Of a DNA stretch of 64,000 nt, positions 28,501 through 30,997 are shown one piece after another. The stretch is from the IMG/VR virus record IMGVR_UViG_3300027747_001027, positions 3,806-67,805 of that record; one strand, written 5' to 3'. The position numbers were made by a program, and so were the translations under genes. Below the pieces are notes generated by a model that was not told where the DNA came from, searched no databases, and was given only the letters and a program-made list of their open reading frames with translations. Origin of the DNA: a virus. Each line of letters begins with the position of its first letter. The stretch's first letter is position 1.

Positions 28501-30997
28501 CAATATCTTGAAGTCTACTCCGTTCCTTTTCAAAGAAACGCTTCATTACAGAATCTTTGCTAGTATTGTGTCCGTAACCTCCGCTTTCAAATGGTTGATT
28601 TGATCCAATCAGTCTAATTCCGATTGAAAACATATCCGGCCTTTCTGGAAGCAGTCCTTTAACTAAAGCAAATTCAGTATTATTTTTTCTATCAACAGCA
28701 ACAATATCTCCAACCTCTGGCGCGGGAGCTTCTGCTGGCGCAACTTGCTCAGTTACTGGTGTGGGAGTGGTTGCTATCGTAGCAGCTTTTGCCTTAGGGA
28801 ACTCATCCAATGCCACCTCATTGCTGTGTAATTGACCTGTAGCTGGTTTTTCTACAAGAAGCTGACCAGACTGCCTTGCGATACTTTCAGCTTGATTGCG
28901 TGTCACGAATGGATCTGCATCTGTCTTGTATCCAAATTGTGGTGTCTCGCGTGACTCTGGGGTTTGCCTTACGTCAATCTCGGATTGCGTAATCTTTCCA
29001 TCATTTTTAGCTTGCTCCATTGCATCCAAGTGAGATGCACCTGTATACTCAGTACCATCTGGAGCAATATACGCCGCTGCTGCAACTCGCATTCCTTGTG
29101 GAGAAACTTGTTCTTGTTCAACAATAGTAGGAGTTTCAGTGCCTACTATCTCAGAAGTTTTCGGTTTTTCCAAGATGATAGGTTCTTCAGCAATTTGAGT
29201 TTCAGCAACTTGTTCTACTGGAGCAGTCTCTGCAACTTGCTCGCCTACTATTGGAGAAACTTGCGGTTTTTCTCCAATGATAAGTTCTGATGGAGTCGGA
29301 GTAACTGGAGCAGCCTCGACTTCAGCTGCTCGTTCTTCCGGCGTGAGGTTTGGCAATGGTGCTTGTGCTTGCGCTAGGATGCCCTCTCCATCCTCGTTTA
29401 TGATAGCTTGGCCTCTACGGACATCTACGAGTCCATCCATCGATAGACGGGCAATCTGTTCGTTTGTAGCGGTATTGTTCGCTACAGCTTGCAACTCGCT
29501 TACGATGTCTCTGGCTATTTGCCTTTCTTCTTCGCTTTTTGTTGCACTGAGTATGCTATCGCCAACGATTGTTTCATTGGTCTGTTGTGTTTCAGTTCCG
29601 TTTTGAGGTTCTTGACGAACGCCTTCTGGCTTGATGATTTCTTTAGTGGCATTTGTTTGTTGTTGTTGTTGTGCAGCAGCCGCTGCTTGTTGTTGTGCAA
29701 AGTCACTCTCAAGTTGATCTGAAAGTTCATTTGCTGCTAAATCTTGTATTATTCTTGCCGTTTCTGGTGAATTATTTCTATTTAAATTTTCTGCAAGCAT
29801 AGCACCACCAAGTGCAGTGTTTTCAGCATTATTGTTTTTTTCTTCCTCTCCAGTTTCCGTTTTATTTGAAAATGGTTTTGATGCTAGTTTAGCTCCTCCG
29901 GCAACTGCACCCATTAATCCCATTGTGGCTATTGTTGCAGGAGCTATTTCTTTGAAGGCTTTTCCCAACCCAGCTAACCCCTTATATTCATCAACAGCGC
30001 CAGCTGTGCTACCGGTTTTAATATATTGTTGTGCCTTTGCATCATCATACCCTTGCTGTGTTTGAGTAATTGTTTCACCACCAAGTTCAACAGCTAAATC
30101 ACCAGCTATTGCAGCTCCCTTTTCTATAACTTTCTTACCAATTGTTTTTGTAGCTGATTTAATTGCATTAGATGCAATGCCAGTTGCAACATCTTTCCCA
30201 AATCCAAATACAAACTTACCAACTCCTAATGTTACAGCATTACCAACAGCCTCCGGTCCAGCTTCCCATATTCCAGTATTTTGAGCTATTGGAAGTAGTT
30301 CTTTGTATGCGGCATCCTTCTCTTCTTCTGTTAATGGTCTATTGTTTTTCTTCAGAGAATTGCTTTCAAGCTGATTGAATGCGTCATCTAAGAACTGCGC
30401 TCCAGCCATTCTATAAGCAACTGGTGCAGAAGAAGCGGCAGCTCCAATTCCGGCTGCAATTGTTCCAATAGGAATTGTTGCAACTTCAGCTGCTGGAAAT
30501 GCAGCCCCAGCAATAGCTCCAGCAGCAGCTCCACCAGCCATCGCGGGAAGTATATTGGCGGCAGTAAATCCAAGACTCTTACCAGCCTCCCTAATTGCTG
30601 AACCAACAGATGTTTCTTCTCCAGCGGAAATTCTTTTATGACGCTCAATTTCAAGTTGTTCGTTCCTTTTTCTTTCAGCCTCAAATGCAATTACATCTTC
30701 TGGACTATATTGATCTGGGCGAATAAGACCAACCTTTGCTCTTCTCATAGCCGCAGGAACTCCAGTTATAAGATCAGATGCAGCCTCTCCAATTGCAGAC
30801 GCAGTATCTAAAACTCCAAAAAATGATTTATCTTTTTCTGATTTATCAGTAGCTATTTGCCTCGGAGCAAAACGATCACGCAGTGATTGAACTTGCGCTT
30901 GATTATCCTCCTCTTCATCAAGAAATGTTATCTTGTTTTTAGTAGGAGTTACAGGAAGAACCATGTCTTCCTCTTCGTCTAAAAATGTAATTGGCAT
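22565..30997 (-). CDS. giant polyvalent/internal virion (ejection) protein with TGT-like and HExxH domains
   Basis: 2810 aa; N-terminal Ala/Gly hydrophobic segments; FIDSGAF barrel; SHELGH; helical C-terminus. Confidence 0.8.
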   Translation of the reverse strand: MPITFLDEEEDMVLPVTPTKNKITFLDEEEDNQAQVQSLRDRFAPRQIATDKSEKDKSFFGVLDTASAIGEAASDLITGVPAAMRRAKVGLIRPDQYSPEDVIAFEAERKRNEQLEIERHKRISAGEETSVGSAIREAGKSLGFTAANILPAMAGGAAAGAIAGAAFPAAEVATIPIGTIAAGIGAAASSAPVAYRMAGAQFLDDAFNQLESNSLKKNNRPLTEEEKDAAYKELLPIAQNTGIWEAGPEAVGNAVTLGVGKFVFGFGKDVATGIASNAIKSATKTIGKKVIEKGAAIAGDLAVELGGETITQTQQGYDDAKAQQYIKTGSTAGAVDEYKGLAGLGKAFKEIAPATIATMGLMGAVAGGAKLASKPFSNKTETGEEEKNNNAENTALGGAMLAENLNRNNSPETARIIQDLAANELSDQLESDFAQQQAAAAAQQQQQTNATKEIIKPEGVRQEPQNGTETQQTNETIVGDSILSATKSEEERQIARDIVSELQAVANNTATNEQIARLSMDGLVDVRRGQAIINEDGEGILAQAQAPLPNLTPEERAAEVEAAPVTPTPSELIIGEKPQVSPIVGEQVAETAPVEQVAETQIAEEPIILEKPKTSEIVGTETPTIVEQEQVSPQGMRVAAAAYIAPDGTEYTGASHLDAMEQAKNDGKITQSEIDVRQTPESRETPQFGYKTDADPFVTRNQAESIARQSGQLLVEKPATGQLHSNEVALDEFPKAKAATIATTPTPVTEQVAPAEAPAPEVGDIVAVDRKNNTEFALVKGLLPERPDMFSIGIRLIGSNQPFESGGYGHNTSKDSVMKRFFEKERSRLQDIEIKNQYFQNIINEEEGRVSAVEAKESEKKQQEQEKQRQFNEEKAAYEDAISQVKIPTGKSETMRFTAPDGSDQAFESKRYGDVGIRKVTSGKNSLYNVDHWHSGLRIMQFNSLSEAKKFTQAIIASGADISKKDIQESELEKLRPIARYFRSGEVVPSLPSQLTPAVSETITEPAQAAVTAQPTEFGFVKDIDSTKENIKKNLIRFASGMSGLSDMRRGSYARAGHRNYGIGFDVGLLSKNTINELANFIVNLDTQVFIDSGAFSSFKKAIKEGRTVEALDFDKILAKYDAIIDEIDKANAVEKTDYPRPMLVMPDVIGNQKASLDLIDKHKNWIATSISMDLSVPIIPIPLGELSLSNAYSSIIDILKTNTLGIEIDPNKFVVGIPSNAEAISRDKLAEFLKQSQPPRIHFLGAAADKNISPLIDVVAQNSPNTQVTADASKVRSAILNGVAKGKTRQQAIFDALYQEDDPNIVLESIGKNPEQLTPTEPAAQPTPATQPEGIAVGNRIKLGKSPQTYIVEEVLPQTESEKANKDQYYSVRSERKNKDGEYDVQAVLRKDMKLVGGNKALKMAAEVIPNQEAVTPIPEANRYTYEEAVRLVDSYFDKEGIPEGVVIVNNTTEPDLEMKAGYFVDRGQIVINLAYIAKGESLSDIISHELGHYIFGDPEFQAEFKKFWDLMTPEEQAEADRLINQFYNAETSAVQMEEKQVRAFMQLVQEGNAQPQWRQLLDSIKRWINKYLKTNFQVTDRNALAVLAAAHKRFKSGERIIREIDSGVLKMAAEPKREKVGGMNIGKAITTPPGITKMTQNVIKAKFFNGSTISDENTALAFGYIQQLLDKKDNNGNKFAGLVNNIVDDELVAQTQEMVDSGKFTREEVDFEKRMGASLLRVELMNYASRLAAQGNVKMFKLLRRKINSIPSDEYAGGLSKEGRSLNTAKGYDISGYNTFKIEQESNVDRLAAALFGTSKPTEEQRNIAQQALEDSEDVEYGSAEEIATAIEDIEKRTKRNVIKNIENQISGNIEGKRNAALEKQKTRPKTPSSVEKQAQSIIDGLANQMSDTPAFAEKQENLVKSIVQQDLRQRPDMKRKQPWTSQLTAKLIQAGVNETQAQTISDLVWRQHEIKAMDRQLKELQTAAEKGSPAVIIQRIKDTPLAMQQEPNWMQSVIREYLVEAGLSENAAKTAARLYESVISERFAEAKQKAFEAALNKSAPWNNFLSRNVKLGKDALKKIQEAIRTGVLDPTQTTESIIAKQNGWSGFSKEQLTRIVQLDDILSDSNENQVTKAEAMSELNKIIVKAKMPVRFKDAISAFYVAQALLGIPTFSVNISGPAVFALRNLTTDVARYAATDPKNIPIAFKGFMNSMQNWYDNTVYAFKNQIYMSGEVEYMQGQNVLSELFDKGMAQWEKGEYANGMANMLVGMTQITGRILSALDQGAIAMMESQNIPRYALDAMVSNKMIPKEKRKEIANIALYGRSLIRQDLIASGMSPERAGVLADLQMRSELMGALSEYGISKTEVLDASLNDALQSVGRNRVITTEGFKKERNNLRDAGITSGLAIGFLENLASSANKGGQAQQVFAKMLYGFALVPARVFSTALWFSPVGFVRLGVDSLLKKAGIESRYAMSLATDLQYKQRVYEAIAGTVLLGVLASLVKSSTDDEDDELPFKIEVTGNGPNYITDPQYYDSWNKKHKPSEASIYFGKTKFSFNINRGGEAISIPLMILGAFDDWNIKSKQNSAKNSPKDLEMAAEVLGSAFYAYAQRGPWAAFGRPLFDAKKQDKLLPELFGKAAYLGKTFVPVLGTSLARNISDFINDPVDKSSIQGAIYANTPVIGPMLGTKALNALGQPIRGDDWNDKLFKLGAPLVFSFPKNSPENDLNTLILKKGDGPTIPTRTNAQKKFGDVMTDKEFETYVREYGRVVSDKMFKNRKRLEGMDSKNYTKELDKYVNGYSIDGIKVTGASDMAVRAVRKTRNQ
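29515..29652 (-). CDS. nested 45-aa basic protein MPLKKSSSQKAF...QSLAIAYS
   Basis: Alternative frame inside the giant gene; resembles the phage MPLKKG...QAVAIA family; A/C-rich leader. Confidence 0.65.
   Translation of the reverse strand: MPLKKSSSQKAFVKNLKTELKHNRPMKQSLAIAYSVQQKAKKKGK

What the first reader, a model, noticed from the sequence alone, without database searches (positions are those of the whole stretch)
29515..29652. Recognisable small phage gene overprinted inside the giant gene
Seen: an alternative frame encodes MPLKKSSSQKAFVKNLKTELKHNRPMKQSLAIAYSVQQKAKKKGK. The host frame's poly-Gln codons (CAACAACAACAAACAA) supply an A/C-rich leader like that of other genes here. From memory, this matches a widespread stand-alone family (MPLKKG.S...I..E...G.P.KQA.AIA). 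Inference: true dual coding inside a disordered linker, coupling a basic, possibly DNA-binding peptide to the ejected protein.
Basis: partly seen in the sequence, partly recalled or inferred. Interest (0 to 1): 0.7.

Follow-up and report, generated by a model that had tools for sequence, protein, structure and literature searches.

The report
Conserved small gene inside giant gene
A 45-codon gene from a very common phage family lies in a shifted reading frame wholly inside a 2,810-codon virion-type gene, and comparison with related phages indicates that selection keeps both readings, so this stretch probably codes for two proteins and gene finders miss one of them.

Summary
On the minus strand, 29652..29515 reads the stated 45-aa peptide in the +1 frame of a 2,810-aa ORF (30997..22565).

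- **Family:** the peptide matches PHROG 2423 over its full length (E 1.2e-14). That family is large and mostly stand-alone, and usually sits beside terminase or portal genes.
- **Conservation:** the ORF is intact, in the same relative frame, inside giant ORFs in 12 of 12 related viral contigs.
- **Selection on the small frame:** variable columns fall 24/16/39 on its codon positions, and pN/pS is 0.23 against 2.07 for the giant frame.
- **Selection on the giant frame:** it is open in only 1 of 49 stand-alone genes and 0.3-5% of synonymous shuffles.
- **Start codon:** it lies in a G- and T-free leader, the most unpaired of 174 ATGs in the giant mRNA. It ranks first in 9 of 11 relatives.
- **Origin:** other phages show the two genes adjacent, overlapping by 11 nt in the same frame, or fused in frame.

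I read this as a real embedded gene pair of the Rz/Rz1 architecture. Translation itself is untested and the function is inferred. The scan's index had no look-alike in other windows.

The parts
29515..29652 (-). Embedded 45-codon gene (ATG 29652, TAG 29517-29515). Its product is a very basic two-helix protein with 12 Lys, 1 Arg and 1 Glu, a member of PHROG 2423.
   Evidence: Translation. phrog_2423 E 1.2e-14. Intact in 12 of 12 related contigs. pN/pS 0.23. AF2 helical hairpin, pLDDT 89. It is the only copy in this 99%-complete genome.
29653..29673 (-). Leader made only of A and C, with no Shine-Dalgarno motif. In the giant frame it reads Gln-Gln-Gln-Gln-Gln-Thr. I propose it as a single-stranded landing site for internal initiation.
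   Evidence: Sequence. It is the only one of 174 ATGs in the giant gene with no G or T in -20..-1. Mean unpaired probability over -18..+10 is 0.92, against 0.435 +/- 0.098 for all ATGs, rank 1 of 174. The same site ranks first in 9 of 11 clade relatives.
29516..29653 (-). Giant-frame codons 449-494 over the same nucleotides: a hydrophilic Gln/Glu/Thr/Pro/Gly-rich linker.
   Evidence: Translation. 0 of 46 codons start with T, against 386 of 2,764 elsewhere in the gene. AF2 pLDDT < 50 and coil for giant residues 454-484. Flanks differ between relatives.
22565..30997 (-). Host gene: a 2,810-codon ORF in the late structural operon. It probably encodes a multi-domain virion protein. No Pfam or PHROG family covers it.
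   Evidence: Homologous giant ORFs of 2,844-3,497 aa occur in five related contigs.
29288..29503 (-). Giant-only conserved segment just after the overlap (about residues 499-570). It shows normal third-position variation in the giant frame.
   Evidence: Alignments. Variable columns 21/12/42 by giant codon position. AF2 pLDDT 93-95 for residues 499-539.

Best explanation
This is a genuine embedded gene pair: one stretch of DNA is read in two frames on the same strand. The giant ORF reads it as a disordered hydrophilic linker between its N-terminal roughly 450-residue part and the rest of the protein. Ribosomes that start independently at the internal ATG (29652) read it as a free 45-residue, strongly basic two-helix protein. 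Initiation is inferred to be SD-independent. It would rely on an unpaired, G-free leader that the giant frame supplies as Gln/Pro/Thr codons. The small protein belongs to an old and very common phage family that is normally a stand-alone gene in the terminase-portal-head module. It is probably a head-interior, virion-associated protein that works with, or alongside, large packaged virion proteins. The arrangement most likely arose when a long upstream virion-protein gene, which already ended 11 nt inside the small gene, lost its stop codon and ran on through the small gene into downstream coding sequence. Comparison shows conservation, selection on both frames, the accessible start, and the alternative architectures in other phages. 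Actual translation, the initiation mechanism, virion location in this phage, the function, and the order of evolutionary events are all inferred.
For: (1) Family membership: phrog_2423 E 1.2e-14 over the full length. 450 small proteins of 24-79 aa (E <= 0.001, of 487 candidates) match the clade profile, as do 267 phage records by tblastn.
(2) Conservation: 12 of 12 related contigs keep the ORF intact, with the same ATG, in the same relative frame inside giant ORFs. Small-frame identity is 82-93% where the giant frame over the same bases is 50-67% (window against 5 relatives).
(3) Selection on the small frame: across 12 distinct sequences, variable columns are 24/16/39 of 45 by small-frame codon position (chi-square p 0.006). 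pN/pS is 0.23 in the small frame, 2.07 in the giant frame and 1.21 in the third frame. The periodicity shifts by one base at the ORF boundary. By giant codon position, variable columns are 12/2/1 in the overlap and 21/12/42 in the next 44 codons.
(4) Selection on the giant frame: the equivalent frame is stop-free in 1 of 49 distinct stand-alone genes. It is stop-free in 0.28% of synonymous re-codings drawn with the phage's codon usage and in 5.0% of uniform ones. T-ending codons are 0 of 117 at stop-prone sites and 8 of 187 elsewhere in the embedded genes. In stand-alone genes they are 37-38%, and in the rest of the giant gene 49%.
(5) Own start codon: in L009/L016 a TAG directly precedes the ATG, and in L013 a stop lies five codons upstream. 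The start region is the most unpaired of 174 ATGs and ranks first in 9 of 11 relatives.
(6) A GC-rich contig (L070) has the same embedded layout with a GGAG motif 9-10 nt upstream, like its neighbouring genes.
(7) It is the only copy in this genome and in five 99-100% complete relatives.
(8) After a roughly 207-codon insertion in L005 the ORF is still intact, and a relic of its old 3' end lies downstream.
(9) Context elsewhere: family members sit next to portal (phrog_156, 4 of 10 neighbours tested) or large terminase (phrog_2, 3 of 10). Others lie directly after ORFs of 1,203 to at least 1,997 aa, overlap such an ORF by 11 nt in the same relative frame, or are fused in frame to a 1,721-aa protein.
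(10) In Pbunavirus the homologue is annotated 'virion protein'. Passages of PMC11456595 say that Pa193 gp20 and gp21 were found by LC-MS in virions. That gp21 is the homologue is my inference from gene order.
Against: There is no direct evidence of translation. The only RNA-library match is one 154-nt contig at depth 2.2, which cannot show transcription, strand or translation.
The 12 sequences are related, so the counts are not independent events. The chi-square test treats columns as independent.
The loci were fetched with patterns from the peptide's own N-terminus, so the architecture tallies are biased samples.
Homology between the L070 host ORF and the window's giant protein is not shown (hhalign probability 2.8%). 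That case may therefore be independent rather than ancient.
The virion and ejected status of the giant protein is not shown, and no family covers it.
Some relatives of the N-terminal domain (P0244, P0245) do not show the overlap motif at that position.
The Pa193 gp21 assignment rests on numbering that I could not check, because the supplementary tables are closed.
The AF2 linker model used only 7 sequences.
Confidence: 0.85

Rival explanations
1. The small ORF is read only through programmed frameshifting. Either the giant N-terminal part is fused to the small peptide by a +1 shift, or the small domain is fused to the giant C-terminal part by a -1 shift near its end, copying the in-frame fusions seen elsewhere.
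For: In-frame fusions of the module to large proteins exist in other phages: L041/L054 at 1,721 aa and L034 at 213 aa. The 3' end of the ORF is rich in AAG/AAA codons.
Against: Stops lie directly before the ATG (L009/L016) or five codons upstream (L013), which excludes a conserved upstream +1 entry. The N-terminus MPLKK is the family's own N-terminus in stand-alone genes. On reading the six aligned 3' ends I found no conserved X XXY YYZ heptamer. The start site carries initiation features: an unpaired leader, or GGAG in L070.
Confidence: 0.05
2. The giant ORF is not one translated gene. The small gene is an ordinary gene lying between two genes, and the long frame is open across it by chance or by assembly error.
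For: The giant-frame reading of the overlap is low-complexity and poorly conserved. No protein family covers the giant ORF.
Against: The frame is open in 12 of 12 distinct sequences from separate contigs although 39 of 45 small-frame third positions vary. The chance expectation is 0.3-5% per sequence, and 1 of 49 among stand-alone genes. T-initial codons are absent from the giant frame (0 of 46). There is no stop anywhere, so ribosomes translating the N-terminal part must run through.
Confidence: 0.04
3. The ORF is a silent relic of a captured gene. Alternatively, its conservation reflects a nucleotide-level element, such as a recombination junction or RNA signal, rather than a protein.
For: The flanks are mosaic and the ORF is an island of nucleotide conservation. 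L005 shows a recombination or insertion event inside it.
Against: Third-position variation with amino-acid conservation (pN/pS 0.23) is a protein-level signature. The start, the stop and the length are kept in 12 of 12. It is the sole copy of a widespread family in six near-complete genomes. The region is the least structured part of the mRNA, not a structured one.
Confidence: 0.04

Closest known systems
Lambda-type embedded spanin genes Rz/Rz1 (search listing and abstracts of PMC6139136 and PMC5295617 seen; the details are recalled)
   Same: A small gene lies wholly inside a larger one, on the same strand in the +1 frame, in a dsDNA phage. The same gene pair occurs in different phages as separated, overlapped and embedded forms.
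   Different: The proteins are unrelated. The small protein has no Cys, so it has no lipoprotein signal, and it is not a lysis protein. The host gene is a 2,810-codon virion-type gene. A fourth architecture, the in-frame fusion, also exists. The embedded start has no SD and sits in an A/C-only leader.
Classical overprinted viral genes, for example phiX174 B in A and E in D (review PMC8227390: listing and abstract only; the examples are recalled)
   Same: Two proteins come from one sequence, with adaptive conflict visible in codon usage and substitution patterns.
   Different: In overprinting the embedded frame is the novel, taxonomically restricted one. Here the embedded frame is the old, widespread family. 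The novel frame is the host gene's linker.
PHROG 2423, including the 68-aa Pbunavirus protein (NC_026600 gp35 'virion protein'; Pa193 H6S64_gp38)
   Same: Full-length profile match (PB1-type E 2.8e-29). Same size class, same N-terminus, and the same central motif around KQA-AIAYS.
   Different: Those members are stand-alone genes after portal and the head-morphogenesis gene. The window's copy is embedded out of frame and lacks the PB1-type C-terminal extension.
Pfam DUF6496 (PF20106)
   Same: A small basic module of similar shape. P0196 carries a DUF6496 match followed by this module. One Atlas cluster near the query has 15% DUF6496 members.
   Different: The window peptide gives no Pfam hit even at E <= 10. 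I found no papers mentioning DUF6496.
Large multi-domain 'polyvalent' virion proteins of phages (recalled literature, not read here)
   Same: A giant ORF in the structural operon with several unrelated domains.
   Different: Packaging and ejection are not shown for this protein. No MuF or other known head-targeting domain was detected.

Membership tests
PHROG 2423 (small phage protein of unknown function) | Significant full-length match to the family profile | tested here: met
   E 1.2e-14, 55 bits, residues 1-44 on profile positions 1-44 of 52. Same result by six-frame search of the genome (E 1.1e-15).
PHROG 2423 (small phage protein of unknown function) | Small size (about 43-70 aa) with its own start at the conserved MPL N-terminus | tested here: met
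   45 aa. The ATG is invariant in 12 of 12 relatives, with stops just upstream in L009/L016 and L013.
PHROG 2423 (small phage protein of unknown function) | Stand-alone gene in the terminase/portal/head module | tested here: not met
   It lies in the late structural operon but is embedded out of frame in a 2,810-codon ORF. Stand-alone members sit beside portal or terminase. This describes their usual context and is not a sequence criterion.
Pfam DUF6496 (PF20106) | Match to the Pfam model at or above the gathering score | tested here: not met
   No Pfam family at E <= 10. The only link is indirect, through P0196 and an Atlas cluster.
Embedded same-strand overlapping gene pair (Rz/Rz1-type architecture) | Small ORF wholly inside a larger ORF, same strand, different frame | tested here: met
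   29652..29515 lies inside 30997..22565, phase +1.
Embedded same-strand overlapping gene pair (Rz/Rz1-type architecture) | Both frames maintained by selection | tested here: met
   Small frame pN/pS 0.23. Giant frame kept open against a 0.3-5% expectation and kept free of T-initial codons.
Embedded same-strand overlapping gene pair (Rz/Rz1-type architecture) | Both products made in infected cells | not testable with these tools
   This needs ribosome profiling or mass spectrometry. The one RNA-library contig says nothing about translation.
Spanin (o-spanin Rz1) | Lipoprotein signal with a lipobox Cys (feature recalled) | tested here: not met
   The 45-aa sequence has no Cys and no hydrophobic signal. 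It is not a spanin.
De novo overprinted gene | The embedded frame is the younger, taxonomically restricted one | tested here: not met
   The embedded frame belongs to a family with 450 small and 2,170 longer database proteins. The giant-frame reading is clade-specific and variable.

The most novel reading that the evidence does not exclude
The 45-residue module is a general head-interior docking or targeting unit for large packaged virion proteins, binding portal, DNA or scaffold. This would explain why it is found free next to portal, directly behind giant genes, fused to the N-terminus of giant proteins and prohead proteases, and here engulfed by a giant gene. Embedding would lock the adaptor and its cargo into one unit of inheritance in mosaic genomes. 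The conserved ORF would double as the homologous junction at which the N- and C-terminal halves of giant proteins are shuffled. Its G-free poly-Gln leader would be a purpose-built SD-independent internal ribosome entry site.
Probability: 0.2. Interest if true: 0.75.

Novelty: new member of a known kind. Interest (0 to 1): 0.6.

Why it matters
Fully embedded, out-of-frame genes backed by strong comparative evidence are few in dsDNA phages. This one is clean: both frames show measurable and different signatures of selection. The start site is the most exposed point of an 8.4-kb coding region. The intermediate architectures (adjacent, 11-nt overlap, in-frame fusion) exist in other phages.

It also reverses the usual story. 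An old gene was swallowed by a neighbour's extension, rather than a new gene being born inside an old one.

In practical terms, standard gene callers will not report this gene. A member of a very abundant uncharacterised family, also present in the virion module of therapeutic Pseudomonas Pbunaviruses, would then be scored as absent from this whole phage clade.

The recurrent link to giant virion proteins gives a testable lead to the family's function. The leader offers a natural model for internal initiation without a Shine-Dalgarno sequence.

Tried and rejected
- **blastn against phages:** window 28000-31000 gave no match, so no annotated close relative is available.
- **Family and sequence searches of the peptide:** Pfam, NCBIfam and PDB sequences (best hit E 0.23, a chance-level match to a tail tube initiator) gave nothing.
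- **Foldseek against PDB:** no match at E <= 0.001. A two-helix hairpin is too simple for fold assignment.
- **Giant protein against PHROGs and Pfam:** only sub-threshold hits.
- **Neighbouring genes:** mostly without families.
- **hhalign of the clade's N-terminal domain against the L070 host ORF:** probability 2.8%, similar only in the acidic N-terminal repeat. I therefore do not claim that the L070 case is homologous.
- **Search for relatives of L070:** it found only itself.
- **In-frame copy of the module inside the giant proteins:** none above noise. The 13.9-bit hit in G005 is rejected.
- **Stand-alone versions of the giant's N-terminal part:** 12 proteins, all on short contigs. Their sequences show fragments; one (P0243) again contains the overlap. 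Their genomic context could not be seen.
- **RNA evidence:** one metatranscriptome run held 6% of the sampled words. Laid, it gave a single 154-nt contig at 29483-29636, 99% alike, depth 2.2. This is no evidence of transcription level, strand, start or habitat.
- **Frameshift models:** considered and rejected (see rivals).
- **Literature:** the search for 'DUF6496' gave 0 papers. Searches for PB1-type virion proteomics gave only the Pa193 passages, and the supplementary tables that would confirm gp21's identity are closed.
- **Not used:** Complex prediction, because I make no binding claim; the search of protein representatives; the metagenome and genome contig scans.

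
Full report
**1. What is there.** The window is bases 3806-67805 of a 67,805-bp viral record rated 99% complete. On the minus strand an ORF of 2,810 codons runs from 30997 to 22565. Inside it, on the same strand, ATG 29652 opens a 45-codon frame that ends at TAG 29517-29515. The A of the ATG is the second base of giant codon 449, so the small frame is +1 relative to the giant frame. The 21 bases before the ATG (29673-29653) contain only A and C and are Gln/Thr codons of the giant frame. The small frame stays open for 26 more codons, up to another ATG at 29730. 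That extension is not kept in relatives.

**2. The peptide belongs to a real, large family.**
- It matches PHROG 2423 ('unknown function') over its whole length, E 1.2e-14.
- It matches no Pfam or NCBIfam model and no solved structure.
- tblastn against 50,697 phage records found 267 records. Of these, 264 cover at least 80% of the peptide and 244 are Pseudomonas phages, mostly Pbunavirus.
- A profile of the clade's peptides found 450 proteins of 24-79 aa (E <= 0.001, of 487 candidates). A broader profile found 2,170 longer proteins (122-2,000 aa, E <= 1e-5, of 8,000 scored candidates).
- In annotated phages the gene stands alone in the head and packaging module. In Pbunaviruses it follows portal and the 'head morphogenesis' gene. 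In phage DSL-LC05 it lies between terminase and portal.
- Of ten neighbours of stand-alone copies that I scanned, four were portal (phrog_156), three were large terminase (phrog_2), one was a virion structural protein (phrog_3287), and two giant ORFs had no family.

**3. Conservation inside giant genes.**
- A search with the N-terminal 766 residues of the giant protein gave five related viral contigs. All five carry the small ORF (82-97% identical) at the same relative frame inside ORFs of 2,844-3,497 codons.
- A search with the peptide profile returned 80 loci. These were fetched with patterns from the peptide's own N-terminus, so the sample is biased.
- Twelve of the 80 (L010-L021, including the five above) have the embedded layout in this clade, and one GC-rich contig (L070) has it in a 1,361-codon ORF.
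- Five are in-frame N-terminal fusions (213 aa and 1,721 aa). The other 62 are stand-alone.
- The flanks of the small ORF in the giant frame differ widely among the twelve, so the ORF is an island.
- The embedded copy is the only copy in this genome and in five 99-100% complete relatives. A second 13.9-bit hit in one of them is noise.

**4. Which frame is under selection? Both, in different ways.**
- Among 12 distinct nucleotide sequences, variable columns number 24, 16 and 39 of 45 at small-frame codon positions 1, 2 and 3. The pooled pN/pS is 0.23 in the small frame, 2.07 in the giant frame and 1.21 in the third frame (six-sequence version).
- The giant frame's own wobble position is the least variable. 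In seven sequences that share the downstream domain, variable columns by giant codon position are 12/2/1 in the first 22 overlap codons. They are 21/12/42 in the next giant-only block of 44 codons. The coding periodicity therefore shifts by one base at the boundary of the small ORF.
- The giant frame is nevertheless kept open. Only 1 of 49 distinct stand-alone genes has that frame free of stops. Synonymous re-coding of the window's peptide leaves it open in 0.28% of trials with the phage's codon usage and in 5.0% of uniform trials.
- The cause is visible in the codons. T-ending codons number 0 of 117 where a T would create a stop and only 8 of 187 elsewhere. They are 37-38% in stand-alone genes and 49% in the rest of the giant gene.
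- No giant-frame codon in the overlap starts with T (0 of 46, against 14% elsewhere). This keeps aromatic, Cys and Leu residues out of the linker.
- AlphaFold2 on giant residues 380-600 (7-sequence alignment) gives pLDDT < 50 and no secondary structure for residues 454-484. A confident small domain follows at 499-539.

**5. How the small protein is probably made.** This part is inferred.
- A stop codon lies immediately before the ATG in L009/L016 and five codons before it in L013. Entry from the giant frame upstream is therefore not conserved, and the family's native N-terminus is the start.
- Only 7 of 43 long ORFs in the window have an SD-like 4-mer, so SD-independent initiation seems usual for this phage.
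- Of the 174 ATG triplets in the giant mRNA, this one has the highest mean unpaired probability over -18..+10: 0.92 against 0.435 +/- 0.098. It is the only one with no G or T in the 20 upstream bases.
- The same site ranks first in 9 of 11 clade relatives, and second and sixth in the other two.
- In L070, whose genes use GGAG motifs, the embedded ATG has GGAG 9-10 nt upstream and no special accessibility, rank 19 of 51.
- On reading the six aligned 3' ends I found no conserved slippery heptamer.

**6. How the layout probably arose.** This part is also inferred.
- In L022, L042, L043, L044 and L049 a long upstream ORF (1,513-1,736 codons where complete) ends 11 nt inside the small gene, in the same relative frame as the window's giant gene.
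- Its stop codon TAA is formed by Leu3 CTT plus Lys4 AAA of the small gene.
- The embedded clade has CTA or CTC at Leu3. One change that is silent in the small frame therefore separates 'overlap by 11' from 'read-through'.
- In L005 a roughly 207-codon insertion follows the small ORF, and a relic of the old 3' end ('...AIAY......KKKGK, stop') lies downstream. The ORF was nevertheless kept whole.

**7. What the small protein is likely to do.** This is the weakest part.
- It has 12 Lys, 1 Arg and 1 Glu and is predicted as a two-helix hairpin (helices 9-21 and 26-44, pLDDT 89).
- BFVD matches are family members and fused forms, among them a 554-aa 'prohead serine protease'. All have E >= 0.001.
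- Longer database forms carry the module at the N-terminus, followed by DUF6321 or by long acidic tails. One protein has DUF6496 followed by the module.
- The Ab28 homologue is annotated 'virion protein'.
- In the Pa193 cryo-EM paper (PMC11456595; passages read) gp20 and gp21 are listed among products found by LC-MS in virions but not placed in the map. By gene order in NC_050148 gp21 should be the 68-aa homologue. I could not confirm this because the supplementary tables are closed.
- Together these point to a head-interior, virion-associated role linked to large packaged proteins. DNA binding is plausible from the charge alone and is untested.

**8. Comparison and verdict.**
- The architecture is that of embedded phage gene pairs such as Rz/Rz1, which also occur as separated, overlapped and embedded forms (PMC6139136, abstract only). 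The proteins are unrelated, and the small one has no Cys, so it is not a spanin.
- Unlike textbook overprinting (PMC8227390, abstract only), the embedded frame is the ancient one.
I did not test it. The scan's index holds no look-alike of the peptide in other windows.
- I rate this a new member of a known kind. The evidence that both frames are maintained is strong (0.85). There is no direct evidence of translation, and the functional reading is provisional.

Noticed in passing
L005:3121-3900 (relative of the window): A roughly 207-codon insertion in the giant frame lies directly after the small ORF. Further downstream is a relic of the small ORF's old 3' end in the +1 frame. This suggests recombination inside the small ORF that nevertheless left it intact.
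   Followed up: partly
window 29288-29503 (-), giant residues about 499-570: This is the most conserved stretch of the giant protein's first third, and AF2 predicts it as a small folded domain (pLDDT 93-95). Several relatives (L011, L014, L015, L020, L021) lack it. Its function is unknown.
   Followed up: partly
window 30900-30997 (-) and the N-termini of giant ORFs in L005-L009 and L070: The giant proteins begin with two or three copies of a short acidic repeat (ITFLDEEED in the window, GLFDDLLEED in relatives, GLFDSLE in L070). A Gly/Ala-rich hydrophobic segment follows. This could be a targeting or membrane-active N-terminus.
   Followed up: no
window 18620-20413 (+): A 597-aa ORF on the opposite strand, between the giant gene and the putative portal, hits phrog_5902. 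That family co-hits with large terminase (phrog_2) in L088, so this ORF is probably the large terminase.
   Followed up: partly
proteins P0123, P0140, P0146, P0143, P0196 (database relatives): The module occurs twice in frame inside an 844-aa protein. It also occurs at the N-terminus of 300-400-aa proteins with long acidic, scaffold-like tails, in front of DUF6321, and behind a DUF6496 module.
   Followed up: partly
L095:1501-1623 (MW202674.1): A family member after a GroES-like gene is not annotated in the GenBank record. Even stand-alone copies are sometimes missed by annotation.
   Followed up: no
window 29483-29636: The only piece of this 1.6-kb stretch found in an RNA library (run X1) is a 154-nt contig that coincides almost exactly with the small ORF. 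It may simply reflect the nucleotide conservation of this island among relatives.
   Followed up: partly
window 7694-11194 and 33570-36584 (-): Two long fibre-like proteins with collagen-like repeats hit many tail-fibre PHROGs. Most other structural genes of this phage have no PHROG or Pfam family, so the clade is poorly represented among described phages.
   Followed up: no
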